A stretch of 64,000 nucleotides of DNA from Naegleria gruberi (Eukaryota): the NCBI GenBank assembly GCA_000004985.1, contig GG738861.1. The stretch is one strand, 5' to 3'. A program made the position numbers and the translations under genes. Shown here in pieces: positions 9,281 through 39,959 of the stretch. Each line of letters begins with the position of its first letter. The first letter of the stretch is position 1. Below the pieces are notes generated by a model. That model did not search any database. It was not told the DNA's origin and was given only the letters and a program-made list of their open reading frames with translations.

Positions 9281-11040
9281 ATGAGTTATAATAGAACAAC
9301 CAATAATAATACTAACAACAATGAGGATAAATCCATCCGAGTTGGAAATAGACTCAATGCAAAGGTGGGTAAAATAGCATCAATGTACAATGCTCTTGAT
9401 AATGACTCTCACGCTACTATTAAGAGAAGAAATCCAATTAGTGGAACCACATCATCCAATGTAACAACCAAAGTTGTTTCAAGCACTGTGCAGACGAGAA
9501 CAGTGGCTAAGAAACCAACCCCAACCACACATCATTCTACTGTAAATTCAATGAAACCCTCTGCAGTTACGAATACAAACAAATCGAGAAATGTTGGTGC
9601 AGTTTCAAAACCTGTGGTAAAGACAACAACAAAAACAAGTACTGTGACAAGTAATATTGATAAGAGAGATGCCAATGATAGGAAAGCTGTTGAAAGGAAG
9701 GAGGTGAATGATAAGAAAGCAGAAGTAACAGTTGTCAATAATCATCAGAATAAGTATTTTGATAACTTTAAACCACAACCATTTCAATGTGATGCTTCAA
9801 GAATTAGAAAATATGAACCTAATTATTCTGAAATAGATAAGAGAGCTAGGAATACACCTAAATCTGAGGAAGCTTCTATTGAGAGACTTGCTCAATATTT
9901 AACTTCTCCCTACAATACTGTGGAAGAAAAAGCTAGGTCACTTTACATTTGGATTACATATAATATTGACTATGATGTAGATGGTCTGTATTCTGGAAAT
10001 GCACATTATACTGCAGACACATCCTTTAAGAGTAGAAGAGCTGTGTGCAGTGGATATTCTGATATTTTGAAAAAGATGTGTGACTGCTGTAAAATGGAGT
10101 GTGTTACAATATCAGGTTGTGCAAAAGGAGCTGGTTATGTGATTGGTGCGCCAGTAGCTTCAAATCATGCATGGTCTGCCATCAAAACTGAAGATGGTCA
10201 ATATAGATTGATCGAGTCAACTTGGGGATCAGGCTATCTTGCACCAAACAGTAGCTCAAAATGGGGATCAGCCTTTGAAAGAAGATTTGTGGATAGGTAC
10301 TTCTTTATGAGTCCATATGAATTCATTGCAGAGCATTTTCCAGACGATTCCAAGTGGCAACTCTTACCAAAAACTGTAACCAAGGAAGAATATGAAAAGA
10401 GAGTTGCTATTAAAGGCAACGGGTTCAGCAATGGATTGAGTTGTGTTTCCCATCCCTATGGGCTTTATACTTTAACTGATTCAAATGTTTGTGAAATTGT
10501 GATGAAAGTTTTTCCAGGAACTGAATCCTTGATCAATCTCTGTGAGGAAAAGAATGGAACAGCTCTCTGGGATGCTGTCAATGTCACATATTCTGACAAT
10601 AAGGACACAATTACAGCAAAGATTTGTTTCCCAAAAAAGAATGTAAAATATTCTGTCAGAGTGTTTGTTGGAGAAAAGGGAAGTAAATTAGAATGGGTTT
10701 GGAGCAAATGTTCACGGTGAGTCCATCAGCTAAGGTTGATGATAGAGGTTTTCCAACGATGTATTCAGACTTTGGTTCCCTTAATCTTTCCTTGGTCACT
10801 CCTAATTTTGGTAAATTATCTAAAAACTCAACATACACTCTAGAAATTGCAACCAAAGGAATGCCTATTGATTTAATGATAACAGGAACTAACTCTGGCA
10901 CTACAATGCACAGTCATAAGGGAGGAGGTAATTGTAAATGTTCATTCACAACCGGTGTTGACCCTAACGTTACTGTTTTTGGAAAAACTGATCCAAACAC
11001 AAGAAATTACAAAGGATTACTTGTTTATAAAGTTGGTTAA
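9281..11040 (+). CDS. Transglutaminase-like (papain-fold) domain protein with S/T/N-rich N-terminus; apparent -1 frameshift near 10687-10718
   Basis: CSGYSD ... NHAWSAIK ... ESTWGSG is a Cys/His/Asp-type transglutaminase-like core. The ORF frame changes by -1 between 10687 and 10718, and the downstream ORF 10693..11040 continues the protein. Confidence 0.55.
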
Positions 11041-12179
11041 TTCTTGAAATCAATTTCCTTACATATCCAATTCAATTTTTTGTTTAAATCTTCATCCATT
11101 GTTGAATAATCGTTCACATCTCTGAAATAAAAGTACACCTTCTTCTCAAAAGCATCAACTATTACAATGGATTGACTTTTAGACTTCCAGTTTGTAAATC
11201 TGGACTTGTAGTGTACAAACACTTCGTTAATAGTGCTTCTATCATAAAGATGAATATCAATCTTCCTTTCAAGACTATACTTCTCAGTAAGGTCTGTACA
11301 TGTTCTATATTTTTGAACTAGTTCGACTAATTCCTCGCTAAAATTATGGAGTGTCATATATTCATCCGTGAATAAATGAGCATCTTCTATTGAAATGAAG
11401 TTATTCTCATATTTGTTAATATTCCTTATATTTAAAAGACTGCTTAAGGTTTCCACAACCTGATCAGGAGTTTTATCATCTGTTACCATTTCTTTGCATA
11501 TTTGGTTTGTTCCCTCTTTAAGGCTTTTTACTTTTTGCCACAGATTATCATTTAAAAATGAATTTGAAATACAATGAGTCGAATTTTTGTCTAAACTTTG
11601 AATGATCAGTTTGTCTTGCAACTTTTCAGGCCATTGAGACAATGGTTTTCCCATTTCATTTCTAGCGAAAATTCTATTTGTAAAATAAATCAAGTCCTTA
11701 TTCATGTCAAACAAATTTCCACAAATAATTATAAAACCCTTTGTTTTTAGCCAATCCTTCTCGCATTCATTAATATGATCCATCAAATCATTATGCTTTA
11801 GTAAATCGATTAGGAGTTTGCTCCTAATTATTTTAGCTGGTTTTTTAGTTTCAGTAACACATTCCTCAGTTGCTACTAATTGATTATTTACATCCTTATT
11901 ATACAATTCTAGTGTTGGTTTGTTCGTTGAGTAATCATCATCCACGTTAGTTAGAATAGCCATATTTCCATTATCAATATTTATCCCCATCCAAGTATTT
12001 CCATACACCAAATCAGTAATACAGCAAATGCAATCATCAATTAATGAAAATGAAGAGGAAGTCGGTCTATCATATTCTTCATCTCGATTCGCCAACATAA
12101 TGAACGGATATCTTGCAGATGAAGTTGCTGCATCACAACAATTTGAACCAGTGGTAGTATGAAGAGCAACAATACACAT
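11037..12179 (-). CDS. TANGO2/NRDE-family protein
   Basis: Starts MCIVAL (N-terminal Cys after Met). ANRDEEYDRPT, NTWMGIN and AILTN match TANGO2 ANRDEFYSRPS, GGTWLGI and AALTN. Single exon. Confidence 0.7.
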   Translation of the reverse strand: MCIVALHTTTGSNCCDAATSSARYPFIMLANRDEEYDRPTSSSFSLIDDCICCITDLVYGNTWMGINIDNGNMAILTNVDDDYSTNKPTLELYNKDVNNQLVATEECVTETKKPAKIIRSKLLIDLLKHNDLMDHINECEKDWLKTKGFIIICGNLFDMNKDLIYFTNRIFARNEMGKPLSQWPEKLQDKLIIQSLDKNSTHCISNSFLNDNLWQKVKSLKEGTNQICKEMVTDDKTPDQVVETLSSLLNIRNINKYENNFISIEDAHLFTDEYMTLHNFSEELVELVQKYRTCTDLTEKYSLERKIDIHLYDRSTINEVFVHYKSRFTNWKSKSQSIVIVDAFEKKVYFYFRDVNDYSTMDEDLNKKLNWICKEIDFKN

Positions 12180-12772
12180 TTTTTTCAATTTTGATTTTGC
12201 AATCCCGAGTTCATCACATGTTCATTGTTCTTTAAATAATATAAAGCAGAACAAGGTTCATCATGATTCTTTACAATTTGTATTCTTTGGCAAATCTTAA
12301 GAAGATTATTTTATATTTATCAACACTTAATACATTAAAGAAGTTACAACATCTGTTGTTCCTAGTTGAATTCCTTAACTTTTGTTTGGAAAATATTAAG
12401 GATGTAATAGTTGTTCGTTGAAGATGAACATGTTCATCATCACTCTCATCTTAATATTTTCCAAATTATAAGTATCAGTTGCCTCGATTCCATAAGAGAT
12501 ATAGTAAGATTTTTTCTCATCAAAAGTTCGCAAAGAATCTGTGTACATTTTGCTCTCGATTGCAACCAACACTGGTTCCTAATCGAGACTTTTTTGGATA
12601 CCTGTAAGACTTTTTAGTGTAGAGGTGTAATGGGTCCTTTGAAAATAAACTGTAAAATTGAGGCAAGCCTTAACGAACTCTCTTCTACAATAGAGCGCCA
12701 AGTCTCTCCTAATAACAAACCACAAAAAAAGATACTAAGGCTGAAGGGAATATATTGAAAATTTTTATCATC

Positions 12773-14797
12773 ATGCCTTCTAATATTAATAATCGTGGTC
12801 ATAGTGAAGATGATAGTGATGAGAGGTTGATAAATTCAAGCCTTTCATTGGCTAAACCATCTAATAGAGCAGGTATTCAAACTGATGAGGATTTTGATGT
12901 TACAAGTCTTCATGAAACACAGGAAGCCATCAAAAAGAAATTGTTATTAGCAAAAATGGACTCACAGTATATGGACGACGATGATGATGTTGATAGTGAA
13001 GTAAAGTTTGAAAAGTTATCAACCAAGGGAAGAAGAAACCCAACAAAACTTGCAGAAATGAATTCCGCCTCAAATATGAGTCAAACTTCGTCATTCCAAA
13101 GAGGTGAAAAAAGAAGAGGTATTAGTAGAAGATTTGCCTCAACAATGAACTCTCGTAAAGGTCTAGATACTGGTAGTCAAATGGATACATCAAGCAATTA
13201 TAGTGATGATAACTCTGATACCCAAAGTCAACTTACCTCCGACAGTGGTGCCGATAGATCAACCTTAGATGATGAAGTTGCCTTCACTCATCAAGACGAC
13301 TTTGTACAGTTAAATAATTTGATCTCACAATTTAATATGTGTGGATTCCCAGTTTTAATCTTTGATAATTATGCAACAATAGAATATTTGAATCGAGAAG
13401 CAGAAGACCTCTTTGGTGTATTCTCCTTCTCTGTTTTGGGAGAACACGTAAGTGAGCTGTTCCTTGAAGATTCAGTTTGTGAAGTACAACAAGTCATTGA
13501 AGATTTTACAGGAAAACCAATCTTCAACAATTCTGATGGTGCATCTGTTACATCAATCAGTAAGGAAGTTGGAGCTGAAGAATTAAAAAAGAGAAAGGAT
13601 ACACTAATGAAAATCAGAATATTGAAAGGAAAAGCAACAATACTTAAAACATTTTTCTCTGTTAAAACAAGATTCATTACGATTCAAAAATTGGGAGTTG
13701 AACATTTTGTAGCATATATGGAAGTGATACAAGACAGTATTGAAGAAAAGAAAGAAATGGCTTTGAGAAAGGTTTACGAAGCCATCACAGATTTGTCAGT
13801 CATTCCAATTATTTCAATTTCTCAACAAGGTATTATTCAAACATTCAATACTGCATGCACTGCAACATTTGGATACTTGAAGAAAGATGTTCTAGGTAAA
13901 AATGTGAAAATGTTATGCAATGAAAAGGATAGACAAAAACATGATTACTATCTTCAAAGATATTTGAAAACAGGAGAGAAGAGAGTAGTAGATAAGACAA
14001 GATTTTTGAAAGCTAAAACAAAGAAGGCTAAATCAATCAAGATTGAATTAAGAGTTTCCGAAATTATTGATGTAGGAAGTAGTTCTTCATCATTTGTTGG
14101 TTTTATCAGAGATGTGAAGAACATGGTAACTAAGGAAGAACAATTGACAAGACTTGCAGACAAGATTTTCCCTAAGAATGTTGCTCAACGTATCAGTATG
14201 GGTCAACAAGTTATTGATATTTTCGAAATGTGTAGTGTGTTGTTCTGTGACATTGTGGGTTTCACAAAGATGTCGAATGGTAAAAGACCAGAAGAAGTTG
14301 TCTCAATTCTCCATGAAATTTTTGGTAGCTTTGATGATGTCTGTACAGCTTTCCAATTAGAAAAGATCAAGACAATTGGTGATTGTTACTTTTTAGCTAG
14401 TGGTGTTCCAAAATTCGTTCCTGAACATGCTGATAATATTGTAAAGGGAGGTTTAGCCATGATTCGTGTGATTCAACAATTTTGTAAAAAAGAAACCACT
14501 GTAGACCTAAAAGTAAGAATTGGTATTCACAGTAGTTGTGATATTATTGCTGGTGTTGTCGGTAAGACTAAACAAACCTATGACTTGTTCGGTAAAGGCA
14601 TAGAGGTTGCAGAAATTGTCGAATCAACAGGTAAAACCAATCAAGTGCAAATTAGTAACTCTACCTATCAATTACTGCAATCGGAGAAGCTTAAGAGTTT
14701 GTTTAGTGTTCATTATGAAGAAAAGGAAGAATTGCTTCTTGAAAAGGTTGGCAAAGTTGTTATTCCAGAAAGAACGTGGATTACCGATTTGCAATAA
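12773..14797 (+). CDS. PAS-PAS-class III nucleotidyl cyclase homology domain protein
   Basis: C-terminus carries FCDIVGFT ... KIKTIGDCYFLASG ... IGIHSSCDIIAGVVG ... YDLFGKGIEVAEIVES (cyclase homology domain). Two PAS-like segments lie upstream. Acidic S/D-rich N-terminus. The first true ATG is at 12773 (the track ORF starts at TTG). Confidence 0.7.
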   Translation: MPSNINNRGHSEDDSDERLINSSLSLAKPSNRAGIQTDEDFDVTSLHETQEAIKKKLLLAKMDSQYMDDDDDVDSEVKFEKLSTKGRRNPTKLAEMNSASNMSQTSSFQRGEKRRGISRRFASTMNSRKGLDTGSQMDTSSNYSDDNSDTQSQLTSDSGADRSTLDDEVAFTHQDDFVQLNNLISQFNMCGFPVLIFDNYATIEYLNREAEDLFGVFSFSVLGEHVSELFLEDSVCEVQQVIEDFTGKPIFNNSDGASVTSISKEVGAEELKKRKDTLMKIRILKGKATILKTFFSVKTRFITIQKLGVEHFVAYMEVIQDSIEEKKEMALRKVYEAITDLSVIPIISISQQGIIQTFNTACTATFGYLKKDVLGKNVKMLCNEKDRQKHDYYLQRYLKTGEKRVVDKTRFLKAKTKKAKSIKIELRVSEIIDVGSSSSSFVGFIRDVKNMVTKEEQLTRLADKIFPKNVAQRISMGQQVIDIFEMCSVLFCDIVGFTKMSNGKRPEEVVSILHEIFGSFDDVCTAFQLEKIKTIGDCYFLASGVPKFVPEHADNIVKGGLAMIRVIQQFCKKETTVDLKVRIGIHSSCDIIAGVVGKTKQTYDLFGKGIEVAEIVESTGKTNQVQISNSTYQLLQSEKLKSLFSVHYEEKEELLLEKVGKVVIPERTWITDLQ

Positions 14798-14921
14798 ATT
14801 TAATTTCATCATCTAGATATTATTGAATTTGAACTATTTGAAAGATTTTTCCGAATATCATCACAATAAATTTTTTAATTTAAATATTATTATTTTCGGT
14901 TTAACTTAGCACCAAAACGAT

Positions 14922-15218
14922 TTATTGTTGAGCAACTTGTTCAGTCTTTTCCTTTTCTTGGAATTGTCTGACGTAGATCTTTCTGGCATTGAATTCAGAT
15001 TCGTTGAACATGGTGATAGCCTTAGCAGCAGCTTCAGCAGTATCGAATTCAACAAAACCAATACCCTTGGATCTCTTAGTTTGAGCATCAGTGAAGATTC
15101 TAGCGTAGGTAACGTTACCAGCAGCAGAGAAGTGTTCCTTCAAAGCAGACCAGTTGGTTCTGTATGGCAAGTTAGAAACAAAAACCTTGGTGTCAGATGG
15201 TGCTTGGGTGGTGGACAT
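14922..15218 (-). CDS. Small single-RRM RNA-binding protein
   Basis: MSTTQAPSDTKVFVSNLPY...KGIGFVEF is an RNP-2/RNP-1 pattern. Codon usage is biased to C/T-ending preferred codons. A-rich start context. Confidence 0.7.
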   Translation of the reverse strand: MSTTQAPSDTKVFVSNLPYRTNWSALKEHFSAAGNVTYARIFTDAQTKRSKGIGFVEFDTAEAAAKAITMFNESEFNARKIYVRQFQEKEKTEQVAQQ

Positions 15219-16686
15219 TATGTTTGATGTATTTTTTTTCAACAAAAAGAGATTCAAAATATTCTTTTACACTCGCGAGTCAACGCAAGCAAACTTGCCG
15301 TGTTTGACTCAGAGCTTAACGGTGTCGTGTTCAACTCTCTCGTTTGATTGGTTGGAGATTAAACAGGGCGTTTGTTACTCATCTGATGGTGTACAAGCTC
15401 TCTTTGAAGAACAACGGTTGCTATTACAGCAACATTGTTTATTTGGATATCTACACAGCATGGGAGAGAGAGGTGAGCGAATAGAATATTAAAATAATGT
15501 GCATCACTGATATTGAATCATGAAATTGAATTTTAAAATTGATAATCAATTATTAAATGTATTTTAAATTTTCCAAGTGGTTCATCATGTCCAATAATTT
15601 TATACATTTCGACAATTTTAAAGGAAATTATCCAAAAGAACCTTAAGCTAAAGAAGATATCAATAACAAATAATTAAAAATCAAATAGATACTCTCGATT
15701 GAATATTTGAAAAATTCAGTAGATAGTAATGGCGGTTTTGATTAGATAAGACAATTTCCATCATTATTTGCCCATCCCGAAAGAGTACAAATTCAATCTT
15801 ATCCTCTCCATTCGGGACGCACCAGTCGATCAAATAGGCGCAATTATTGTCTTTGTCCACTCTCTTCTATCAATACAACTTCTTTGGAAGAAAACAAGTG
15901 AAAAAAAACAATCTATTTGCAATGTCTTATCTGAGAAGGAATATTAACAAGTCTCTTATTCCGATATTGATTGCCGGAAGCTATTATGCTAATTCATTAA
16001 GAACTCAATCAACATCTTCTTTTAATAAGAAGGAATTGGAATCAATTTCTTCCAACAATACTCAATCAACAAACAATATACAATCATCATCCTTCGCACC
16101 AACAATTCGGCCTTCTAATATACAATCCCTATCAGTGGAAAATCTACGTGAATCCATTCATAATGTTCTCACAACCATTCTTCATACCTTCATGAAGGTG
16201 CATTAAATTTTAGTCTCGCGCATCACACACTTGTAAATAAACACTTCAGAATGTAAATAAACACACACAGAATATTATACCCAACAACAATAATATTGCA
16301 TCAGATAAATATTAGTATTGAATGAGTCAAGCCACAGGATTGATTACAATTTCTATTGAAACTTCATCCTTGCCTTTTCCGAGGACCATCAAGGAGTGCT
16401 TAAATTTCGATTGACCTTCAAGTCCTTATCCATTTCCCTCCCAACAATACATCAACAACCATCACAAGTTACTTCCCTGAAGTTGCAAATGATCCATAAA
16501 TTACAAAGAGGAGGATCTTCCATCATGCATCACAACTTAAAAATCTCAACAAAAAAAAAAACTCTAGATATCAAAAGCCTTTTGTGCAAAAATCATTTAA
16601 AATTTTTAAACAAGTTCAAAAGAATCAATTTTTAAACGTTACCCAGACAAAAATACAAAGAAGAAATTACACAACTGCCGATCAAA

Positions 16687-21893: not shown

Positions 21894-23110
21894 ATGGAAT
21901 CATCACTTCTTCATCTATTATTGATGATATCCATAACCATTACAATTTTGCATAGTGCTCATAGTAAAGGTTTGTAATTTTAAAAATCATCATCATGCCT
22001 TAAACTACCTTACCTTCCCATTATAGTTATGGCCTTACCTACATGTTTTGGTAAATTAAGCTCCGATACAGCTAATGTTTGCAGTGGAAGAGGTACATGC
22101 ACTGGGCCAGATATATGTCGATGTGATGAGCCATCATTATTCGGAGGTTCAGAGTGTGAAATTGCATTATGTGGAGGATTACTACCAACAGATCCAAATG
22201 TTTGTAGTGGAAGAGGTGTATGTAGTGTTGTGTCAGGTTCTTTTGCAACATGTTCATGTGTTGATGATTCCAATTTCTCCCCATCAAATTCATATGTTGG
22301 AATGTTTTGTGAAATTCCAACATGTCTTGATTATGATCTTGTGGATTACTTTCATGATAAGTCAAATATTTGTAGTCTGAGAGGAAAATGTGTTGGTTTG
22401 AATACTTGCAATTGTGATAGAAATTCAACATTGCCTTTGGAGGATTTTCGTGTGAAAAGTCTGGATTTTCCTGTTTTGGAACACATGCAGAAAATTCACA
22501 ATCTTGTTCAGGAAATGGAATTTGTATTGATGCAGATGTATGTCAATGTGATAAGAATCATGTTGGATTTGACTGTTCCATACCAAAATGTTTCAATATT
22601 TCTGCAACAGATTCGAATGTTTGCACTTCAAAGGGAAAGTGTACGAATGTTGATACATGTCAATGTAATAGTGGATATGTTGGAAATTCATGTGAATATT
22701 ATCAATTATCTTCATCAGAAACAACCAACGTAACAATTTTGGTTAAGAGGTTGAATTTTACTTGTTTTGGAATTGAAAAGACAAGCGCTCTAGTTTGTTC
22801 TGGAAAAGGAAGCTGTGAACATTCAAATGTTTGGACATGTTTAGACGGATATTTTGGAGAAAACTGTGAACAGACATCTTGTTTTGGAATTCCAGCAAAT
22901 AATTCTCAAACTTGCAATTCAAGAGGAATTTGTAAAGATTACAATCAATGTGAATGTTTAATTATTTCAAATAATACTCTATTGAATGGTAGTGATTGTT
23001 CACAATTGTATTGTCAGGGATCTGATAATCAATTTCATCTTTCCTCAACTCCAGAATCTTGTTCTGGAAATGGAAAATGTACCATGAATGGATGTAAATG
23101 TCATGGTTGA
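21894..23110 (+). CDS. Secreted protein with Dictyostelium-type EGF-like Cys repeats; intron 21970..22026; -1 frameshift in T-run at ~22436
   Basis: Signal peptide MESSLLHLLLMISITITILHSAHS. Repeats of C..G.C.....C.C....G..CE (for example NVCSGRGTCTGPDICRCDEPSLFGGSECE). The repeat pattern is restored if cctttgg (22434-22440) is read as ccttttgg. Confidence 0.55.
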
Positions 23111-23254: not shown

Positions 23255-23318
23255 TACCGTGTAGTCCAATGGCTAGGATACCTGGCTTTCACCCACGGGT
23301 TCAATTCCCGCATGGGAG
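23255..23318 (+). tRNA. tRNA-Glu(UUC)-like element, ~8-9 nt too short (pseudo-tRNA?), followed by a TTTT terminator at 23322-23325
   Basis: TACCGTG TA GTCC AATGGCTA GGAT A CCTGG CTTTCAC CCACG GGTTCAATTCCCG CATGGGA G. Acceptor pairs 6/7. D-arm and anticodon arm fold, with a TTC anticodon in a CTTTCAC loop. The T-loop TTCAATT is present, but the variable loop and T-stem are truncated. Confidence 0.3.
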
Positions 23319-23990
23319 GATCTTTTCGACTTTAATACTTGTTGATACACCACCTCCGTTGGTTTCAGAAAGGAGCTCCAATGCAGGCACAATGCTAATT
23401 TTGCAACATTTATTCAAAGTGGGATGCTCAAGCTTCTTAAAAAATAAATATTTCTACTCAGAAATGGTGTCTTGTTTTTGAGATAGAAGAGTTTACAATT
23501 AGTTTACAATAAGTTTACAACCATAGAATATTTCTTTAGACATTATGAAAAATAACAGAATTTTATCAATAGTTTAAATTTCACTATTTCATAAAAGTTA
23601 AACATTTTTCAGTCATTAAATTTTCATCAATTTCACTCACAGAGCAATGAATCGTTGCACTCAATCCATTCAATTTTTCCTTAACAGTTTTGACTGTTGA
23701 GGTTGACTGTTCTGGTTCCTTCTCTGATGCCACTGTTTTCGTTGAGTTTCGAAATGCCAACTCGAGTGTTTTTTGGAGGGAGATTGGTGGTCAATTCATC
23801 CAATGAGGAGAGTTTAGTTAATTCTTGATCGATTTGAATGGATGCATTTTCAAGACTAGGAGCGTTTTATCCTTGTTGGCTCCCTTTCCCATTCTCATTT
23901 CTTCATAAGATTTGCTAATTTCGGCGCAAGCAGATGATAACATAAGGAAAGTCATTTCGGATTTATTGCTCTTCTATTTCAGATCAAATA

Positions 23991-24957
23991 ATGACTGGAC
24001 TGTGGGTACTTGCTTCATGTCAAATTCATTCAACCATTTCTGATGACGACTTGATGCTGTCAAATCACTCGCTCAGCAAATTCACAACATTCCAGATGCC
24101 TTCATAATTGTTTTGACAGGTGCTGGATTGTCAACTTCATGTGGCATTCCAGATTTTAGAACTCCAGGTAAAGGACTCTTTGTAAATGGCTCACTCGGTA
24201 AGTTTCAAGTCAAAGATCCAACATCAATATTCGAAATTGGTTATTTCAAAGAAAATCCAATTCCATTTTTTGAGAGAATGAAGAATTTCATTGCCACCGA
24301 TTACAAACCATCGAAAACTCATTTCTTTATCAAGCTATTGCAAGATAAGGACAAGTTAATGAGATTGTACAAGCAAAATATTGATGGATTGGAGAGAAAA
24401 AGTGGAGTTTCAGATGACTTGTTGGTGCATTGTCATGGAAAATTGTACACCTCTCATGGCATGCATTGTAAAAAACAATTTACTTTACAATATTTAAGAG
24501 ATGAAATTACAAGTAAAGGTGAGAAGTTCAAATTCCCAAATGCAATGTTTGTGGAAATATTGTAAAACCTTATGTAGTTCTGTACGGAGAGTTGATTTAC
24601 CAGACAAATTTGGAGAATGTGTTTTTCAAGATTTGAAAAAACACAAAAATTGTAAACTATTCATTGTGATTGGAACCATTTTACAAGTTTATCCAGTTGC
24701 CCTCCTTCCAGAATACGTACCTCATGGAACGATGAGAGTTTTAATCAATAGAGATCGATGTGGAGGATTTTACAATATTCAATCAGCCATTAGAGAATGT
24801 GATGTGAAGAATAATCATTTGGATTTATATTTATATATTTATATTTGGGAGGAGCTGATCAACCATTGATGGATGTGTGGAATTGTTAGTGAGAGAATTG
24901 GGATGGGAAGATGAATTGATGGAAAATTCCACTTTGGTGGGCATGAATAATTTGTAA
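23991..24957 (+). pseudogene. Sirtuin (SIRT2-like class I) gene with at least 4 single-nucleotide frame disruptions
   Basis: IIVLTGAGLSTSCGIPDFR, QNIDGLE, HG..YTSHC, C..C, VKPxVVLYGE and LFIVIGTILQV form a sirtuin core spread over 4 reading frames. Shifts occur near 24041, the A-run at 24538-40, the T-run at 24622-26 and the CC at 24863-64. Confidence 0.55.
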
Positions 24958-25104
24958 AACCAAAAATCAAATCATTCCTCATAGGATTTCTCTGATTTAG
25001 AACTCTCTTTAAGCTTAATAAACTTGATAAGATGGTTTATCTCAATATAAAAACTATTACACATCCAATAATACTCACAAATTGTTGTTTATATATATAC
25101 ATAA

Positions 25105-26388
25105 TTAATTTTGGAGAGTGCGTGCACCACAAACCATTGTTAAGATCTCCTTCTCTGGTTTTACTTGTTCAGCTACCATATCCCACTTTTTTGCAGCATA
25201 GCGTAATTGATTAACAGGTTTACTGACCTCATGACGCTCAAACTCTGTTTGAAAGTAAGTTTTCCACTTTAACTTTTGCAAATAAGCTATTTTTGCAGGT
25301 GCATTTTGACTATGGAGATCAATAACCTCAAACAATCGATTGGCAATGTCAACAAAATCTGGTGAATGTCCTTCGACTGTTACAATGGCATGCAATAGGA
25401 GGGTACGAGCATATTCACTAACTGCCTGCAACAAAGTGACTGAATTATATTCAGTGAATTCTGCAGTAGCTTCCTTAAAAGCACTTGCAAGGGCATCATA
25501 ATAAGCGCCTGTAAACACCTCTGATAAGAAGGGGCCCTCTTCCTCACCCTGAGAAATTTTGTAATCATTATCAGCCTTACGGAGATAACCAGGCATTCCC
25601 AATGAAATACCAAATTCCTCAGCCAAGTTAGAAGCAAAGTTGTTTGCTGAAGCATGAAGGTTACCCAATGTTAAATTAATTAAAGCTCTAGCCATGGCAT
25701 CATCAGCAAATACGAAACTTAAGGCAGAAATATCACCAAATGCTTGATGAAGACTACCAGTTTGCACATTTCTAGAATCATTGAATTCTGGACGCAAATG
25801 ATCCAGTACATAATGTCCAGTTTCATGAGCAACAATGTCAGATGATTGACATGTGTAAATTGTATCTCCTTTGTCATCAGTGAAATAACCAAACTTTAGT
25901 TCAATACTACCATTACCACGAGAATAATAAGAATTCTTTTCGTCTTCCAAACCATATGGACTGATTTGGAGAGTACCACTTGGCATCTTATTCCAGTATT
26001 CAGCTGCCTTACTCAACTTTTTATCATCAGGGAATGTTTTTCTCAATGCATTGACAGTGTCTCGCCACATATTTGCAGTCAACTTGGCAGCTGTGAAAGT
26101 ATGTAACATATCAAATCCTGGAGTACGTGGAATTAACTTGTCAATCTGAGACATTTTAATCTTTCCACCAACAATACTCATCTCAGCATCTTGAGGACCA
26201 TCTTTAAAGACTTGGGGGACGTAACATTTCTCTATCATTTCGAGGAGAGGTTGGTTTCGTGTAACGCTAATATCCTGAGGGTAAAATCTCAAAACAGTGC
26301 CCTCCTCCTCAGAGGTAGCTGAAGCAGTAGCATTGATGGGTTTGTTTGTACGTTGTTCTGGCAGATTTTTTTGGATTTGAGATGACAT
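25105..26388 (-). CDS. Putative zinc metallopeptidase (HExxH)
   Basis: 427-aa ORF with VAHETGHYVLDH (HExxH). Single exon. First ATG at 26388. Confidence 0.5.
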   Translation of the reverse strand: MSSQIQKNLPEQRTNKPINATASATSEEEGTVLRFYPQDISVTRNQPLLEMIEKCYVPQVFKDGPQDAEMSIVGGKIKMSQIDKLIPRTPGFDMLHTFTAAKLTANMWRDTVNALRKTFPDDKKLSKAAEYWNKMPSGTLQISPYGLEDEKNSYYSRGNGSIELKFGYFTDDKGDTIYTCQSSDIVAHETGHYVLDHLRPEFNDSRNVQTGSLHQAFGDISALSFVFADDAMARALINLTLGNLHASANNFASNLAEEFGISLGMPGYLRKADNDYKISQGEEEGPFLSEVFTGAYYDALASAFKEATAEFTEYNSVTLLQAVSEYARTLLLHAIVTVEGHSPDFVDIANRLFEVIDLHSQNAPAKIAYLQKLKWKTYFQTEFERHEVSKPVNQLRYAAKKWDMVAEQVKPEKEILTMVCGARTLQN

Positions 26389-27002
26389 TTTCAACTTTTT
26401 TTATATGAAAAACTTTGAATGTTTTGAGTATTTATTGTTGAATTATATGAAATATTGGACGAATTTGGAATGATTCCATTTTAGTAATACCAAGTTAGGT
26501 TAGTGCTGAATTTTTACTTTTTCCTTTGCAGATTTTTAAATTGGAAAATAGTAGAAGATATTTCGAAATACAAATTATCCATAGCTCTTATTAGATGGAT
26601 ATTTATTGTTACAAAGTGTCCATAGCTCTGTTCAAAATTTTTGATTGGAATATTGCAGTTGTTTGCAAACAACTCAACGCTCACATGAAATATCAAACAG
26701 TCTTTATCAGCACTTCATCATATATTTCTAATGTTTGCAGTAATTGAACTATTGGTGGTTGGAATTTTGTTAAATCTGTGAAATATTAGCACAATCATCT
26801 AATGAATAGGAAGTTAAGTTGGTGACAAAAGTTGATAAAAACATTAAATCGCTCCTCATGGAGTGAAACTTCTCATTTTCGTGACTTGTAAAAACGTGTT
26901 CCATATCAAACTTTCATATTATTGTAAACTCTCAATGTTTTCGAACCTGTTGTCTCATTGTTTTTACTATAAATAAATAACATTATATTTTATTTTTTTC
27001 AT

Positions 27003-28901: not shown

Positions 28902-29898
28902 ATGTCATCACTTTCTGATGTTTACCACTCACCCGATATTCTCTCTCATGTCTTCTCCTTTTTACCACTGCCCAGTATTGCCATTATGGAGAGATCTAGC
29001 AAATATTTTGCAGAAATGTTGAGAGCAGATTATTTTGATAAGACAATTTACAATGACACTATTTGTAAACTATTTAAAATTGATGCAAGGTTTATGAGAG
29101 AGGAAATGCCATTGCACAATTTTAATCAGTTTTTAAGAGGAGAGAATTGTAGAGAATTATTGAAAGAGTTTTATCAAGCACCATTCATAGGTGGTTATCA
29201 ATATGTTGACTTTGCAAGTATGGATTCCTATTCGGATAAGGGAGGTGTCATTGATTTTAGTTTGTATAGTCCTTGTAAATTATTGAAGTGTGTTAAAACA
29301 TTGTAGATTTGATTTGGATGACTATCTTAGGAGAAAACTGCATAAATTTGTGTTAATTGCTGCAGTTTCTAGGTGGGATTTGGATGAGAAATCGAAATTT
29401 CAAATTGGAATACCAGATAGAGAGTTGGCATTCAATTTCGATGAAAGGGATTATTCAGCTGATTCGTTTCCAGTCACTCAATACTCAATGGGAAAGGGTT
29501 TAGTAATGATGTTCAATGATTTTAAAGAGATTGAATCCACTCATTCCATTGCCATTTCAGCATCAGGAATAGAAGATAGTGTTGCTTTCTATTCTGAAAT
29601 ATTAAGAAATGCTAAACCAAATGAAATGTGGTCTGACATCTTTGCTAAATGTTCAAATCCACCCTATGGGTTGAGAATTAATACAACTGAGGACATTGCA
29701 AACCTAATCACTGAATATTACAATGATCATGATGGAAGTTGTGAAAATTATTGTTGGGATGAGTATTTATTAGAAGGAAATAGCTCATGGTCATTATATT
29801 GGCTTTCTGGTGCAGAGTGGTGGGGATGCTATTCACTCACTTCGTACGATTTCACAAAGGAGAGATTTGTCGTGGCCACTGCTTCCACTACTGATTAA
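28902..29898 (+). CDS. F-box-like domain protein, unknown C-terminal domain; +1 frame change near 29290-29306
   Basis: ILSHVFSFLPLPSIAIMERSSKYFAEML is F-box-like. The two overlapping ORFs (28902..29306 and 29290..29898) are contiguous in sense. Confidence 0.4.
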
Positions 29899-32619: not shown

Positions 32620-34388
32620 ATGAGAGTCCACCAACACAAATGTTCAGTTTGTCTTGAAGATGACGATGAAGAATTGGCACTCTATTCCTGTGTTCAATGT
32701 AATGTCAAATTATGTGATTTCCACAAGAAGAAACACTCAAAAAAATATTCCACTCATGAAATTAGTCCACTTTCAGATCAAATTTGTCCTCAACACAATT
32801 TAGCCATAAATATTTATTGTAGAACTTGTGAGAGTTTGGTTTGTCCAACGTGTGGTTTTACAAAGGAACATAAAGGACATGATTGTGCTCTGATAGATGA
32901 TGCAAGTGAAGAGGAACGAATCTTATTGCCGAAACTAGTGGATGAACTAACTTTGAAAATTGAAGAATGGCATAAGGAGAAGGGTAGTTCACAAGATGAA
33001 GATTTAAAAACAGAGTTGAGTGTTATTGAAAAGAAGAAAATGGATTTGAAAGAACAAGTTTGTCATGAAATTGAAAAGATGAAACAAAAATTGGAATTGA
33101 GAAAGGAAGAATTGAATAGGGAAATTGATACAAAATGTAATGAAAAGAGTTCTATTGTGAATAATCTGATTTCCTTCAAGGAAAAGACTCTAGATTTGGA
33201 ACGAACTTTTAAGGAAATTGACAATATGTCAAATTTTGAAATGATGTTTGCCAAGGTTGTTAAATACAATCAAGTTAAGAAGGATTTCAAATTGGCAACT
33301 GAAAAGGAACTATTCACTCACTTATCAGATCTTCATAACATTGATCTCATTAACTTTTACACAATTGTCAGTCAGGTAATTACCGTCGTTGAGAAAATGG
33401 GAAAGATTAAAGCAGAATCCATTCAAAAGAAAGATTTAAAAGTGGAATTCACCAATCTAGGAGCAGAAGGAAGAACTGGTCCCACACAGATTGGGAATTT
33501 TTACAATAACAATCTTCACATGAAAGATAAGGTCACTCTCATTAACAGTGGAATTCAACAGTGGACAGTTCCATTCACTGGAAAGTATAAAATCATTGCT
33601 GCAGGTGCATGTGGTGGATCAAATCCTTCCAATGGAAAGAGAGGAGGTTACGGAGCTATCATTTCAGGTGATTTCACTTTGGAAAGGAATACAATTTTAC
33701 AAATACTTGTTGGTCAGCAGGGAAGTTCTGCTATTGGTGGAAGTGGTGGTGGTGGTGCAGGTGGTGGTGGTGGAACATTTATTTGCTCAATTGGTAATAA
33801 TAGCAGCAAGAAAATTGAGAATTCTTCTCCAATCTTGTTAATTGCAGCAGCTGGAGGAAATGGTGCTAGTTGGAGTAGTTGGAAAACGAATGGACCTGGT
33901 GGTAGATTACCAAAAGCTCAAGATGCTTCACTCTCAATTGGAAAAGCTGGTAGAGGAAGTGGTGGTGCTGGATGGATTAATGATGGAGAAATGGATAAAA
34001 CTTCCACTAATGGATTTGGTGTCAGTTTCTGTAGAGGTGGTCAAGGTGGTAGTTATAATGGTTCTTATGGAGCCAATGGTGGATTTGGTGGTGGAGGTGG
34101 TAAGTTACTTCAATTCCACATTTATTTACAAATATTTTACAATTATTTTACAATTATGAATATATTCATATTATTATGATTTTAATTTCAAATTAATTTA
34201 AATAAGCTTCTGTACATGAAGGTGGAGGTGGTGGAGGTTATATTGGTGGATCATGTGTTCCTGAGAATAAGTATGATATACCATTTCCTGATTATGGAGC
34301 TATTTCATTTAATGGAGGAATTAATCAAGATGGAAAGGAAGATGCTAATAGTACACATGGATATGTAACTATTCAATTACTTCAATAA
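32620..34388 (+). CDS. B-box zinc-finger / coiled-coil protein with C-terminal glycine-rich (polyglycine) domain; exons 32620..34099, 34222..34388
   Basis: Two Cys/His B-box-like clusters (CSVCL..CVQCNVKLCDFHKKKH; CPQHN..YCRTCESLVCPTCG..HKGH), a K/E coiled coil, then GG/GGG-rich C-terminus (GSGGGGAGGGGGTF ... GGFGGGGG|GGGGGYIGGSC). GTAAGT..AG intron, phase 1. Confidence 0.6.
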
Positions 34389-36505: not shown

Positions 36506-37083
36506 TTATTCCAAATCAGCTCCATGTAATTCCAATAATTTTACTAGTGCTGAATTTCCCTTCTTTACTGCCCAAAACATTGCTGTCTAAATTGTTATTT
36601 TGTAAACTATACCAAATTATAAATACTTACTTGCTATTTTTGAAATATTAGAAATTAAAATATACTCATTCTACTTACACCATTCTTATTCTTCATATTC
36701 GGATCCATTCCTGATTGTTCCAACCATTCCTTTACTAATTCAATTTTACCAAGGCGAGCAAGATCCACAAATGAATCTGCCATCATTTCCTTTGAGACTT
36801 TATCCTTAATCTTTTCAAATTCATCTTGAATTGTTTTTGTTAAAAAGTTTCCTTGCTCATCCGCAAAGGCAAGACTGTCCTTCCTCGTTCTAATAAAGTC
36901 TCTAGTAGATTGAGGGGAAATATCGAGAGGATTGTCAAAATTAGGTGTTCTTGGTCGGGAGGCACTCTTTGGTCTTGTTGATTCATTTTGTGTTCCAAAT
37001 TTGAAGGCTTCCAATGATGATGAGGCTGAATCAGTGTTATTGATTGTAGTTATTGGAGATTTGCTTAATGGTGGTTGTTGCAT
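36506..37083 (-). CDS. Small ankyrin-repeat protein; exons 36679..37083, 36506..36586
   Basis: ARLGKIELVKEWLEQSGMDPNMKNKNG|TAMFWAVKKGNSALVKLLELHGADLE is ankyrin-repeat-like. GTAAGT..AG intron. The stop codon abuts the stop of the convergent kinase gene. Confidence 0.5.
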
Positions 37084-37245
37084 TTTTTATTTTTAAAAAC
37101 CTCAACAGCCATCAAATATATATTGAGCGGTAAAATGTTCATCCAAAGAGTTCTTTCATCTCTCATTGATATTTTCTTAATAGTTTTTTTATGAAATATT
37201 GCAAATACAATTCATTCTTTTGACACAATACATGTATGTCATTTA

Positions 37246-37922
37246 GGATATCCCTTCCACCCGATGCTGGTTTGGATTTGTTCAAAATCGAAAATTTTTT
37301 GGCCTGGATTTTTCAGATTGCCACAAGCGAAAAACGGGAAATGGTCTTCTAATTCAACTTCTATTTGGAACATCAAATGAATAATAAAATTAAATCATGA
37401 TGACAGTAAATTCTCAACGAATTACTTTCATAATGGGACATATCTGTATCAAACACTATGTGCTGTATGGTGTATTGAGTTAATCCTACTACAGCCATGC
37501 ATTTTGGTAGGTAGGCCTACCATTACAGCTTATTACATCATCATTTCATAGATGTTGATAATTGACTAGGTGATTGTTGCTGTCTCAAATCTTGAGATGA
37601 ATTTTGTCGATCAAGTGCATCAAAAAATTCATTATATCATAAGTACCTTGCCCATAAGTTGATACTTTACTTCTTCCATCATCTCAAGTCTAAATCATAA
37701 CTTTGATCTCATCATTTTGAGAAATAAATATCTTCGTGTAACGGTTTTTCGAAGCGCCAATAAATTGGAAAAATATTATTTTTTATTCATTTGATGAACC
37801 AAATAGAAGTTGAATTAGAAGACCATTTCCCGTTTTTCGCTTGCGCCGATACTGAAGGGTCTGAGCGTGGCTGATGAACAAAAAGTCTGAGCATCGGGTG
37901 GAAGGGATAATTTAGGATATCC
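37246..37922. repeat. Inverted-repeat element (MITE-like / foldback), ~677 bp, non-coding
   Basis: Ends GGATATCC (37246-53 and 37915-22). Perfect inverted blocks: 37250-37268 vs 37890-37908 (19 nt), and 37325-37368 vs 37799-37842 (44 nt). About 420-bp AT-rich centre with no ORF. Confidence 0.6.
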
Positions 37923-37978
37923 ACATTAATTATTTTTTAAATATTTTAAAATTTCTATTTTAATTATTAGTAAAAAAA

Positions 37979-38491
37979 ATGAACGTACGTAGAGCTAGAG
38001 TTGCCGACTTGTTCGCAATGCAAAATTGCAACTTGAGTTGTCTTCCAGAAAATTATCAAATGAAATATTATTTATATCATGCCTTGTCTTGGCCACAATC
38101 ACAATATATTGCTGAAGATCGACCAGGTCATCTTGTCGGATATGTCATGTCTAAAATGGAGGAAGAATATGATGAAAAGTTTGATTATCCTCATGGTCAT
38201 ATTACAAGTCTTTCAGTTCTCCGATCACATAGAAAATTAGGTATGGCTAAAAGATTGATGAATATGGCACAAGGAGCTATGCAAGATTCATATGGAGCAG
38301 CCTACGCTAGCCTTCACGTAAGAAAGAGTAATAATGCTGCCATTTCATTATATCATAATACATTAGGATTTGAAGAGTTTGAAATTGAAAAGGGATATTA
38401 TGCTGATAAAGAAGATGCCATTGATATGAGGAAGAAATTCCGAAGTGATGTTGATTTTAATAAGAAGAAACAAAGTAAAAAGAAAAAGTAA
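37979..38491 (+). CDS. N-alpha-acetyltransferase 10 (NatA catalytic subunit, ARD1 homolog)
   Basis: [40 protein letters not shown]...[23 protein letters not shown] is a near-canonical NAA10 GNAT core. Single exon. Confidence 0.8.
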
Positions 38492-38828
38492 ATTAATGAA
38501 TTTATCAACCTTATTATAATATTACTATAATATTACTATCATCGTTTTACATTGATCATAACATGAACATAATCACGTTTTTCTGTGTTGTTCCATATGA
38601 CTTTCAGTATTGATTCAAAGTTGGGGAGTTTCTATTGGGAGAGAAATACGGAGTTTAAAAAAATTAAAAAATCTTTCAAAGGCTTTGCTACTAGTACTCA
38701 TCACTACTGACCATTTGAAAGTCAATACGAAGAAGAAGAAGGATTTTAAATTGATTGGAATTATATATAATCTCTCTGTGTATTTTAAAATAACAACAAC
38801 AATAACAACAATAACAAATAATAACGAG

Positions 38829-39959
38829 ATGGAAGACGATGAAATTTTACATTATAGTACAACTCATGATGAAGTTCTTGATCCAACTTTATCAATGAAT
38901 ACCATCGGTGGTGGTAGCAGTAGTAGTGGTGGAAATGGTATAATGATGATGAATGGAGATGTAACAACACAATCCAATCAACCAAGTAACAAGACTAATA
39001 ATCACCTCTATAAAGTACTTGTTGTTGGTGATTATGCTGTTGGAAAAACAAGGTAAATTTATTTAAATTAATATTGATAATCTCATGATGAGGAAATTAG
39101 TTTGATTCGGAGGTATTGTACAGGAGAGTTTACAAGCAATTATCGTATAACTATTGGAGTTGATTTTTGTTTAAAACATATAGATTGGAATGAAAATACA
39201 TCAGTTTCTTTACAATTATGGGATATTGCTGGACATGAAAGATTTGGGGTAAATATATTCAATTATATATTCAATTTTATATTCTAAATATTTAAATTCA
39301 ATCAAATTGATTATTTGGAATATTTTCAAAATATATTTAATCATAATAATACATAATCATAATCATAATAATAGGGTATGTGATTGTTAATTATTATTAG
39401 TATAATAATAATGATAATAATTGAAATATATTAGCCATGACAAGAGTTTATTATAAATATGCTATTGCAGCAGTTGTTTGTTTTGATATTTCAAGACCTT
39501 CAACTTTGGATAATGTTAAAAAGTGGAGAGATGATATTAATTCTAAAGTAGTTTTACCAGATGGAGTTACACCAATACCAATGATTTTGTTAGCTAATAA
39601 GTGTGATTTACCAGAAATTACAATCGATAAAACAAAGATGAATAAGTTTGCAAAGGAAAATGGATTTATTGCTTGGTTTGAAACATCAGGTAAGTGCATT
39701 TAGTGACTTTTTTATTTTGAAACTTTACATAGCAAGAAAGAATGTGAATATTGACACTGCATTCCACTTTTTGGTTTCTCATATCATGAAAATTACAAAA
39801 AATATGACACTTCAAACACAAGGTCAAAATAATTTAGGAGATCATAAAAAAACAGAACTGAACGTGGTTGGAGCAACACAAAACAGTAATTTTGATAAGA
39901 ATGATAAAGATAAGGAAAATGAAACAACTTCATCAAACAAGAAGGGATGTTGTTACTGA
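38829..39959 (+). CDS. Rab32/38-subfamily small GTPase; exons 38829..39052, 39101..39248, 39435..39689, 39733..39959 (exon 2/3 junction out of phase by 1 nt)
   Basis: LYKVLVVGDYAVGKT|S LIRRYC...WDIAGHERF ... MTRVYYKYAIAAVVCFD...LLANKCDL...ETSA. The WDIAGxERF variant is diagnostic of the Rab32/38/29 group. C-terminal GCCY. The G-run at 39246-39249 makes the exon 2 to 3 phase inconsistent. Confidence 0.7.

What the first reader, a model, noticed from the sequence alone, without database searches (positions are those of the whole stretch)
10687..39249. Recurrent frame breaks in coding sequence: sequencing artefact versus pseudogenisation
Frame shifts were found in the transglutaminase-like gene (10687-10718, -1); the EGF-like gene (T-run 22436-22438, -1); the sirtuin (near 24041, -1; A-run 24538-40, -1; T-run 24622-26, -1; CC 24863-64, +1); the F-box gene (29290-29306, +1); a possible 7-A run at ~55479-55485; and the Rab32 exon 2/3 junction (GGGG 39246-49). 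At least six of these could be repaired by changing the length of a homopolymer run; the runs flanking the 24041, 29290-29306 and 10687-10718 breaks were not identified. Other long ORFs in the window are clean (cyclase 2 kb, ABCG, acyl-CoA synthetase, LRRs). The errors are therefore clustered. Clustering would fit either local low coverage or relaxed selection on specific genes.
Basis: seen in the sequence. Interest (0 to 1): 0.5.

Follow-up and report, generated by a model that had tools for sequence, protein, structure and literature searches.

The report
Decayed gene duplicate plus isolated frame breaks
The frame breaks in this Naegleria gruberi window have two causes: a truly dead, decaying duplicate of a sirtuin gene (next to dead cofilin and tRNA copies), and four isolated single breaks in otherwise healthy genes that are either small errors in the draft Sanger assembly or very recent mutations. 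Both causes are ordinary.

Summary
The window is Naegleria gruberi NEG-M, a 507-kb scaffold from a Sanger draft assembly. Frame breaks are real in five genes, but they are not one phenomenon.

(1) Sirtuin, 23991-24954. Compared with an intact copy, it carries 4-nt, 4-nt and 1-nt deletions, a 2-nt insertion, a 14-nt tandem duplication and a 9-nt in-frame deletion. None is a homopolymer miscount.
- It has 21 private amino-acid changes, against 2 and 0 in the functional copies. These include lost catalytic and zinc-binding residues.
- It lies in a segmental duplication beside a shredded cofilin copy and a tRNA remnant.
- The next gene, about 150 bp away, is intact.
- Verdict: a genuine unannotated, unprocessed pseudogene.

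(2) Transglutaminase-like, EGF-like, F-box and Rab32 genes. Each has a single lesion in an otherwise conserved frame.
- Transglutaminase-like gene: GGG where GGGG is needed.
- Rab32: GGGG where GGGGG is needed. The public Rab32 protein is already the in-frame product.
- F-box gene: probably a lost TG.
- EGF-like gene: the lesion cannot be localised within 20 nt.
- None of the three breaks inside coding sequence can be a real intron.
- Draft error versus a recent or heterozygous mutation cannot be settled without reads.

The 55.48-kb A-run claim is unsupported. "Repairable at a homopolymer" is close to what chance gives. Interest is low.

The parts
9281..11037 (+). Transglutaminase-like gene in two frames (9281-10717 and 10687-11037). 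A single -1 lesion is pinned to the GGG run at 10695-10697, where homologues require W-G, i.e. TGGGGT.
   Evidence: Pfam Transglut_core. The public model NAEGRDRAFT_57719 stops at the premature stop. The N. lovaniensis homologue and two metagenome homologues align through the break to the end of the second frame. DNA reading.
21894..23107 (+). Secreted EGF-repeat gene. It has a signal-peptide exon 21894-21969, an intron 21970-22026 and a main exon from 22027. One -1 break lies within 22419-22438. A cysteine of the CxC motif is replaced by W in repeat 6, and the last repeat ends abruptly at the stop.
   Evidence: Pfam EGF_2/Teneurin EGF. The public model NAEGRDRAFT_66295 skips 22218-22420, which is in-frame EGF coding sequence, as a false 203-nt intron. 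Sequence reading.
23255..23318 (+). Degenerate tRNA remnant with a Glu-UUC-like anticodon loop and no T-arm.
   Evidence: Rfam tRNA at 20.5 bits, below the gathering score of 29. ARAGORN finds no tRNA.
23585..23935 (-). Cofilin/ADF pseudogene remnant. Relative to the intact copy it has deletions of 3, 56, 8, 13 and 7 nt, and the start region is lost.
   Evidence: The intact counterpart on L002 hits Pfam Cofilin_ADF at 8.6e-23, and the window copy hits nothing. Alignments.
23991..24954 (+). Sirtuin (Sir2 family) unprocessed pseudogene with five frame-shifting lesions and one in-frame deletion. No public gene model covers it.
   Evidence: Pfam SIR2 at 8.8e-32 on the largest fragment. The repaired composite is 90% identical to the N. 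gruberi sirtuin XP_002672516.1 on another scaffold. Lesion map. There are 21 private replacements against 2 and 0.
25108..26388 (-). Intact neighbour gene of the duplicated block, NAEGRDRAFT_48255, 427 aa, no Pfam domain. It serves as the control for local sequence quality.
   Evidence: Exact match to the public model. It is 89-91% identical to two paralogues on the 327-kb and 747-kb scaffolds. It has no frame-breaking indel against L002, and pairwise dN/dS is 0.27.
28902..29895 (+). F-box gene in two frames, with the break in 29287-29303. The best fit is loss of one TG from a TGTGTG at 29288-29291. The alternative is one extra A in the AAAA run at 29295-29298.
   Evidence: The public annotation splits it into NAEGRDRAFT_66297 (134 aa) and NAEGRDRAFT_66298 (136 aa). 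The paralogue NAEGRDRAFT_63529 (61% identical, 335 aa) and more distant homologues span the break with a four-residue xLLx linker.
38829..39957 (+). Rab32/38-like gene with four exons: 38829-39052, 39101-39248, 39435-39689 and 39733-39957. The exon 2/3 junction is one base short at the GGGG run 39246-39249.
   Evidence: Splice reading. With one added G the product aligns without gaps to human Rab38/Rab32. That product is exactly the public protein XP_002678585.1.
40239..40288 (.). Run of 50 N, an assembly gap. It cuts the 3' end of a protein kinase gene and shows that the scaffold is an unfinished draft.
   Evidence: The Pkinase match stops at profile position 182 of 263.
55467..55473 (+). There is no evidence that it breaks a gene.
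   Evidence: Only 55689-55988 has coding-like composition.

Best explanation
There are two unrelated causes.

(A) Positions 23.25-24.95 kb are the decaying part of one copy of a segmental duplication ordered cofilin(-), sirtuin(+), gene Y(-). In this copy only gene Y stayed under selection. The sirtuin and the cofilin became redundant with intact copies elsewhere in the genome and are being eroded by small deletions, a tandem duplication and unconstrained substitutions. These are genuine unprocessed pseudogenes and account for five of the roughly nine frame breaks.

(B) The transglutaminase-like, EGF-like, F-box and Rab32 genes each carry one small indel in an otherwise open, conserved frame.
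- My best reading for the two breaks that homology pins to a single base (transglutaminase-like GGG, Rab32 GGGG) is a one-base undercount of a G-run in the unfinished Sanger consensus.
- The F-box break (probably a lost TG) and the EGF break (which also has a lost cysteine and a truncated last repeat) are more likely real, recent lesions in dispensable members of gene families.

Shown: the lesion maps, the parent copies, the asymmetric substitution pattern, the absence of credible introns at the three in-exon breaks, and how the public annotation handled each break. Inferred: the cause of each single lesion.
For: Identity of the window:
- Seven ORFs match N. gruberi NEG-M models on a 507,294-bp scaffold exactly.
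- The assembly is Sanger (PMC9928731 Table 1).

Sirtuin:
- An independent Illumina metagenome contig, L002, carries the orthologue of the functional locus. Its sirtuin is 99.4% identical to XP_002672516.1 and its gene Y is 97.4% identical to NAEGRDRAFT_72400.
- L002 aligns to window 24031-26402 at 90.5% nucleotide identity.
- Against L002 the window sirtuin shows lesions of -4, -4, +2, +14, -1 and -9 nt.
- There are 21 private amino-acid changes against 2 and 0 in the functional copies. They include TQNID T>K, the first zinc cysteine C>G, KPD D>Y and GTS S>I, all invariant in 8 heterolobosean homologues.
- The homology search returned no N. gruberi model for this locus.

Cofilin and neighbour:
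- The cofilin remnant has deletions of 3-56 nt.
- The adjacent gene Y is intact.

Single-lesion genes:
- Homologues span all the breaks.
- The only frame-keeping GT..AG candidates at the three in-exon breaks have weak splice sites, are 57-70% AT and would remove conserved coding sequence. Almost all other tested junctions in the window have GTAAGT/GTATGT...YAG introns of 72% AT or more.
- The in-frame Rab32 product equals the public protein. On the assembled DNA this needs a non-canonical intron end; with one more G it becomes a canonical G|GTAAAT...TTAG| intron.
- G/C runs are only 6% of homopolymer runs of 3 or more, yet both single-base-resolved breaks are G-run undercounts.
Against: - No reads, traces or transcripts could be examined, so the cause of the four single lesions is not demonstrated.
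- Pairwise dN/dS of the sirtuin (0.38-0.48) is only moderately above that of its neighbour (0.27). The stronger argument is the polarised replacement count.
- The G-run argument rests on two events. From my own recollection (not checked here), G-runs are also reported to be intrinsically more mutable than A/T runs.
- The public Rab32 model may have been forced into frame by a curator or by homology-based software rather than by cDNA evidence.
- The F-box lesion could instead be one extra A in an A4 run.
Confidence: 0.7

Rival explanations
1. All the frame breaks are sequencing or assembly artefacts from a locally low-coverage stretch of the draft.
For: The assembly is an unfinished Sanger draft with a 50-N gap in the window. 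Four breaks are single small indels. Two of them are G-run undercounts.
Against: - The sirtuin lesions are 4-, 4-, 2-, 14-, 1- and 9-nt events outside homopolymers. They come with 21 private replacements, including lost catalytic and zinc residues.
- The cofilin remnant has deletions of up to 56 nt.
- A 1.3-kb gene about 150 bp from the sirtuin is intact.
- About 5.4 kb of window coding sequence cross-checked against independent Illumina contigs shows no frame-breaking difference.
Confidence: 0.03
2. All the breaks are genuine. Strain NEG-M, a long-cultured and presumably heterozygous diploid laboratory strain, carries real null or heterozygous frameshift alleles in the transglutaminase-like, EGF-like, F-box and Rab32 genes as well as the older sirtuin pseudogene. 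The consensus happened to pick the broken haplotype.
For: - All four genes belong to families with other members or relatives: an F-box paralogue at 61% identity, other EGF-repeat proteins, and many Rab relatives among solved structures.
- The EGF gene also has a lost cysteine and a truncated last repeat.
- The F-box lesion fits a dinucleotide slip better than a base-call error.
- Naegleria is described as a heterozygous diploid (PMC9928731).
Against: - The downstream frames are still fully open and conserved for 117, 203, 229 and about 160 codons, with no second lesion. Any inactivation must therefore be very recent.
- The public Rab32 protein is the in-frame product.
- If four of roughly 25 genes were truly broken, the same rate genome-wide would be implausibly high.
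Confidence: 0.2
3. The breaks are not defects. They are very short or unusual introns, or sites of programmed ribosomal frameshifting, that give full-length proteins in vivo.
For: - A 29-nt GTGAGT...AG segment (10717-10745) would restore the transglutaminase-like frame.
- Re-reading one G after the Trp codon at 10694-96 would give the homologue-like W-G product.
- On the assembled DNA the Rab32 model needs a non-canonical intron end.
Against: - The best-scoring candidate introns in this window are 43-298 nt (most 43-127 nt) and at least 72% AT, most with GTAAGT/GTATGT donors.
- The candidates at the breaks are 57-70% AT and would delete residues that are conserved in homologues.
- GGGTTTG at the transglutaminase-like site is not in the X_XXY_YYZ register of the zero frame (my reading).
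- The public annotation truncates, splits or skips these genes rather than joining them.
Confidence: 0.03

Closest known systems
Unprocessed (duplicated) pseudogenes arising from segmental duplication
   Same: The sirtuin and cofilin copies keep their genomic neighbours and orientation. They have an intact, closely related parent locus (90% amino-acid and about 95% nucleotide identity). They carry multiple frame-shifting indels and show unconstrained replacements at invariant residues.
   Different: The indel load is high for the divergence: six indels in 0.9 kb at about 5% substitution, and deletions up to 56 nt in the cofilin. One gene of the same block stayed intact. Lack of expression was not tested.
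Consensus indel errors in unfinished Sanger whole-genome shotgun drafts
   Same: The four isolated breaks are single small indels, two of them one-base undercounts of G-runs. Their density is about 1 per 16 kb, in a scaffold that still has an N gap. The public annotation shows the usual symptoms: a truncated model, a split model, and a false intron placed over coding sequence.
   Different: No quality values or reads are available here. One break fits a 2-nt TG loss better, which is not a typical base-calling error.
Sir2 family NAD-dependent deacetylases (SIRT2/3-like; Pfam PF02146)
   Same: The pseudogene's parent is a typical cytosolic-type sirtuin with GAGxS, TQNID, HG, a zinc ribbon and GTS motifs. 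The pseudogene still scores 110.9 bits against the family profile.
   Different: The window copy has lost the T of TQNID, the first zinc cysteine, the D of KPD and the S of GTS. It cannot be translated in one frame.

Membership tests
Unprocessed (duplicated) pseudogene | Clear homology to a functional parent gene in the same genome | tested here: met
   The frame-repaired composite is 90% identical over 100% of its length to N. gruberi XP_002672516.1, which lies on a different (327-kb) scaffold.
Unprocessed (duplicated) pseudogene | Copied as genomic DNA with its flanks (no poly-A tail, neighbouring genes co-duplicated) | tested here: met
   The order cofilin(-), sirtuin(+), gene Y(-) is the same in the window and in L002. 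Homology runs from 23588 to 26402, including intergenic DNA. The parent gene has no intron, so intron retention could not be used as a criterion.
Unprocessed (duplicated) pseudogene | Disabling lesions (frameshifts or stop codons) | tested here: met
   Five frame-shifting indels and one 9-nt deletion in the sirtuin. Five deletions of 3-56 nt, plus loss of the start region, in the cofilin.
Unprocessed (duplicated) pseudogene | Relaxed selective constraint compared with the functional copy | tested here: met
   There are 21 private replacements against 2 and 0. At least 15 are polarised as derived by outgroups, and several fall at residues invariant in 8 homologues. Pairwise dN/dS of 0.38-0.48 is only moderately raised.
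Unprocessed (duplicated) pseudogene | No functional product (not translated as a full-length protein; usually little or no expression) | not testable with these tools
   No transcript or proteome data for NEG-M could be reached. The homology search returned no public gene model at the locus.
Spliceosomal intron of this genome (as an explanation of the transglutaminase-like, EGF and F-box breaks) | GT...AG ends with a strong donor (GTAAGT, GTATGT or GTTTGT), an acceptor ending in YAG, at least 72% AT, length of 43 nt or more, and not coding in homologues | tested here: not met
   The best frame-keeping candidates at the three breaks score 7-8 against 9-11 for nearly all other junctions tested. 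They are 57-70% AT and would remove residues aligned in homologues. The public model's 203-nt 'intron' in the EGF gene encodes in-frame EGF repeats.
Sanger consensus indel error | A single-base length error in a short run, with the rest of the gene intact | tested here: met
   Transglutaminase-like gene: TGGGT where W-G needs TGGGGT. Rab32: GGGG where GGGGG gives a canonical splice and the public protein. This is inconclusive for the EGF gene (lesion not localised within 20 nt) and for the F-box gene (TG loss preferred).
Sanger consensus indel error | Low coverage, low quality, or disagreement among the underlying reads at the site | not testable with these tools
   No traces or reads are available. 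Metagenome and exact-protein look-ups for an independent copy of the broken sites found nothing.
Programmed -1 ribosomal frameshift site | Slippery heptamer X_XXY_YYZ in the zero-frame register, followed by a stimulatory structure | tested here: not met
   At the transglutaminase-like site the zero frame reads UGG GUU UGG, so GGGUUUG is out of register (sequence reading). No such motif is present at the EGF or F-box sites. Downstream RNA structure was not examined.

The most novel reading that the evidence does not exclude
The assembled bases are all correct. NEG-M would then carry real single-base frameshift alleles in several family genes. The Rab32-like gene would still be expressed in frame through a non-canonical intron end (TA...AG or GT...TA at 39249/50-39433/34), that is, tolerated non-canonical splicing in Naegleria.
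Probability: 0.07. Interest if true: 0.4.

Novelty: new member of a known kind. Interest (0 to 1): 0.15.

Why it matters
Mostly housekeeping for users of the N. gruberi reference.
- An unannotated sirtuin pseudogene, a cofilin pseudogene and a tRNA remnant should not be counted as genes.
- Three public gene models need correcting: the truncated transglutaminase-like NAEGRDRAFT_57719, the split F-box pair NAEGRDRAFT_66297/66298, and the EGF model NAEGRDRAFT_66295, which has a false intron and lacks its signal-peptide exon.
- The case also shows that "a nearby homopolymer could fix it" is a weak criterion in AT-rich genomes.
- No new biology is implied.

Tried and rejected
- I first suspected a dictyostelid genome from the composition. 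The homology search showed Naegleria.
- Positions of N. gruberi NCBI genes are not indexed, so the parent locus on the 327-kb scaffold could not be fetched. I used the orthologous metagenome contig L002 as a proxy instead and validated it.
- A chimeric transglutaminase + F-box query returned only transglutaminase hits. The F-box part had to be redone with the representatives search.
- Listing every GT..AG pair around the breaks did not discriminate. I replaced it with a scored comparison against the window's other junctions.
- Contigs L003 and L004 (77% identity) belong to other species and do not reach Rab32.
- Two JGI metagenome word scans (the transglutaminase break, the Rab32 exon 2 end) found no N. 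gruberi relative. The four Rab32 hits are unrelated organisms.
- Exact look-ups of the ORFs downstream of the transglutaminase and Rab32 breaks were empty.
- The N. gruberi genome paper (Cell 2010) is not held in the library. Literature searches for N. gruberi pseudogenes or assembly quality gave nothing specific.
- A broken gene at the 55.47-kb A-run was considered and dropped for lack of any homology or coding signal.
- Programmed frameshifting and mini-introns were considered and rejected (see the rival explanations).

Full report
Source of the window. The window is AT-rich (22-35% GC) and eukaryotic. A frame-repaired sirtuin query found Naegleria proteins. Seven window ORFs are residue-for-residue identical to N. 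gruberi NEG-M gene models that all lie on one 507,294-bp scaffold. That assembly was made by Sanger sequencing, and Naegleria is regarded as a heterozygous diploid (PMC9928731, Table 1 and text). A run of 50 N at 40239-40288 shows that the scaffold is an unfinished draft.

Are the breaks real, and could they be introns? The best-scoring candidate introns joining the window's other ORFs are easy to recognise. Most have GTAAGT, GTATGT or GTTTGT donors and YAG acceptors, all are at least 72% AT, and they are 43-298 nt long (most 43-127 nt). Such introns join the acyl-CoA synthetase, PhoPQ-related, ABC and other multi-ORF genes cleanly. At the transglutaminase-like, EGF-like and F-box breaks the two open frames overlap. 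The only frame-keeping GT..AG candidates there have weak sites, are 57-70% AT, and would delete sequence that aligns to homologues. These three are true frame breaks in the assembled DNA. At the Rab32 exon 2/3 junction the only plausible donor (GT at 39249) and acceptor (AG at 39433-34) leave the frame one base short.

The sirtuin is a genuine pseudogene. Its best relative is the intact N. gruberi sirtuin XP_002672516.1, on a different (327-kb) scaffold, at 90% identity. I could not fetch that locus. However, an Illumina metagenome assembly (ERZ929261) contains a Naegleria 97.4-98.6% identical to NEG-M (contigs L001 and L009). Its contig L002 carries the orthologue of the functional locus: the L002 sirtuin is 99.4% identical to XP_002672516.1, and the L002 neighbour gene is 97.4% identical to NAEGRDRAFT_72400.

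Aligned to L002, the window sirtuin (95.2% identical over 904 aligned nt) has these lesions:
- a 4-nt deletion at 24045|46;
- a 4-nt deletion at 24521|22;
- a 2-nt insertion at 24592-93;
- a 14-nt tandem duplication at 24823-36;
- a 1-nt deletion at 24861|62, a G in CAGAC;
- a 9-nt in-frame deletion at 24912|13;
- a diverged 5' end.

None of these is a homopolymer length change. At the protein level the window copy has 21 private replacements, against 2 in the NEG-M functional copy and 0 in the metagenome copy. At least 15 are derived according to outgroups. They include residues invariant in eight heterolobosean sirtuins: T>K in TQNID, the first zinc-ribbon Cys>Gly, D>Y in KPD and S>I in GTS. 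Pairwise dN/dS is 0.38-0.48, against 0.27 for the neighbour gene. The homology search returned no public gene model for the locus.

The sirtuin sits in a decaying block:
- Upstream, 23585-23935(-) is the remnant of a cofilin/ADF gene. That gene is intact in L002 (Pfam 8.6e-23). In the window it has deletions of 3, 56, 8, 13 and 7 nt and has lost its start.
- At 23255-23318 there is a tRNA-like remnant without a T-arm (20.5 bits against a gathering score of 29).
- Downstream, gene Y (25108-26388, NAEGRDRAFT_48255) is intact, matches its public model exactly, and has two 89-91% identical paralogues on other scaffolds.

This is one copy of a segmental duplication in which redundant members are eroding while one member is kept. 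The intact 1.3-kb ORF about 150 bp from the sirtuin argues against poor local sequence as the cause.

The four single-lesion genes:
- Transglutaminase-like gene. N. lovaniensis and two metagenome homologues (443-612 aa) run through the break and align to the end of the second frame. All have W-G at the junction. This needs TGGGGT, and the window has TGGGT (GGG at 10695-97). The public model simply stops at the premature stop.
- F-box gene. The N. gruberi paralogue NAEGRDRAFT_63529 (61% identical, 335 aa) and more distant homologues span the break with a four-residue xLLx linker. This fits loss of one TG from TGTGTG (K-C-V-L-K-H-C) better than one extra A in the AAAA run. The public annotation split the gene into two models.
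- EGF-like gene. The repeat pattern (CxC...FGGxxCE) places a -1 lesion anywhere in 22419-22438. The public model jumps from 22217 to 22421 and so discards 203 nt of in-frame EGF repeats. It also lacks a signal-peptide exon at 21894-21969. A CxC cysteine is replaced by Trp in repeat 6, and the last repeat ends abruptly. These hint at real decay. There is no close paralogue.
- Rab32. With one extra G the spliced product aligns without gaps to human Rab38 and Rab32, giving ERFG-x-MTRVYY. That product is exactly the public protein XP_002678585.1. On the assembled DNA this product requires a TA..AG or GT..TA intron. With GGGGG the intron would be a canonical G|GTAAAT...TTAG|.

Weighing artefact against mutation for the four singles. 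In all four genes the downstream frames remain open and conserved, for 117, 203, 229 and about 160 codons. Any inactivation is therefore very recent, or not real. Four indels in 64 kb (about 1 per 16 kb) lies within what I would expect from an unfinished 8x Sanger draft; that expectation is my own knowledge and was not tested here.

The two breaks that homology resolves to one base are both G-run undercounts, although G/C runs make up only 6% of runs of 3 or more in the window (258 of 4150). This points to a G-specific process. Sanger compression is the simplest candidate. But there are only two events, and from my own recollection (not checked here) G-runs are also reported to be intrinsically more mutable than A/T runs.

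The cross-check against independent Illumina contigs covers only about 5.4 kb of window coding sequence. It found no frame-breaking difference, which is too little to bound the error rate. Attempts to find an independent copy of the broken sites failed.

My estimates are as follows:
- Rab32 and the transglutaminase-like gene: about 60% consensus error.
- F-box and EGF-like genes: about 55-60% real lesions.
All four need reads to settle.

Other points. "Repairable at a homopolymer" carries little weight, because 62-86% of random 15-31-nt windows of clean coding sequence here contain a run of 3 or more. The A7 run is at 55467-73, not 55479-85, and nothing supports a broken gene there.

Verdict. 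The finding is real but ordinary. It consists of one unannotated unprocessed pseudogene cluster plus four isolated small indels of undetermined origin (draft error, or recent or heterozygous mutation). The public annotation handled those four by truncating one model, splitting one, inserting a false intron in one, and forcing one splice junction.

Noticed in passing
window 40239-40288: A run of 50 N (scaffold gap) abuts the 3' end of a 1083-aa protein kinase ORF (40238-43486, minus strand). Its Pkinase match stops at profile position 182 of 263, so the gene is cut by the gap.
   Followed up: partly
window 23255-23318 (+): Degenerate tRNA-like sequence with a Glu-UUC-like anticodon loop and no T-arm. 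It scores 20.5 bits, below the Rfam gathering score, and lies between the EGF gene and the cofilin remnant.
   Followed up: partly
window 25108-26388 (-); proteins P0125, P0126, P0127: Gene Y (NAEGRDRAFT_48255) has no Pfam domain. It exists as three 89-93% identical paralogues on three scaffolds (507, 327 and 747 kb), so the duplicated block has at least three copies. Whether the third copy keeps a sirtuin or cofilin is unknown.
   Followed up: partly
L001, L002, L009 (ENA ERZ929261 / ERR1078381, PRJEB11402): A public metagenome assembly contains short contigs of a Naegleria 97.4-98.6% identical to NEG-M. All 14 indels between L001 and window 11667-16534 are intergenic. This could serve as an independent check of the reference wherever contigs exist.
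   Followed up: partly
window 21894-22026: The EGF-like gene has an unannotated first exon encoding a signal peptide (MESSLLHLLLMISITITILHSAHSK), followed by a 57-nt GTTTGT...TTATAG intron. The public model starts downstream at 22029.
   Followed up: partly
window 39231-39248; L005, L006, L008: The Rab32-like protein has His in place of the usual catalytic Gln (WDIAGHERFG). The same AGHERFG variant occurs in unrelated metagenome Rab32-like genes, so it is probably a lineage variant rather than decay.
   Followed up: no
window 32620-34176 (+): A 519-aa ORF combines a B-box zinc finger (7.8e-09) with an ALK/LTK-type glycine-rich domain (2.3e-09). This is an unusual pairing for a protist protein.
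   Followed up: no
window 12773-14794 (+): A PAS-PAS-adenylate/guanylate cyclase protein (NAEGRDRAFT_66293). The metagenome relative encodes a protein of the same length in the same 90%-identity cluster.
   Followed up: no
window 50081-50533 (+): An intact cofilin gene (XP_002678586.1) lies in the same window as the cofilin pseudogene remnant. It is only 29% identical to the parent of the remnant, so it is not the source copy.
   Followed up: yes
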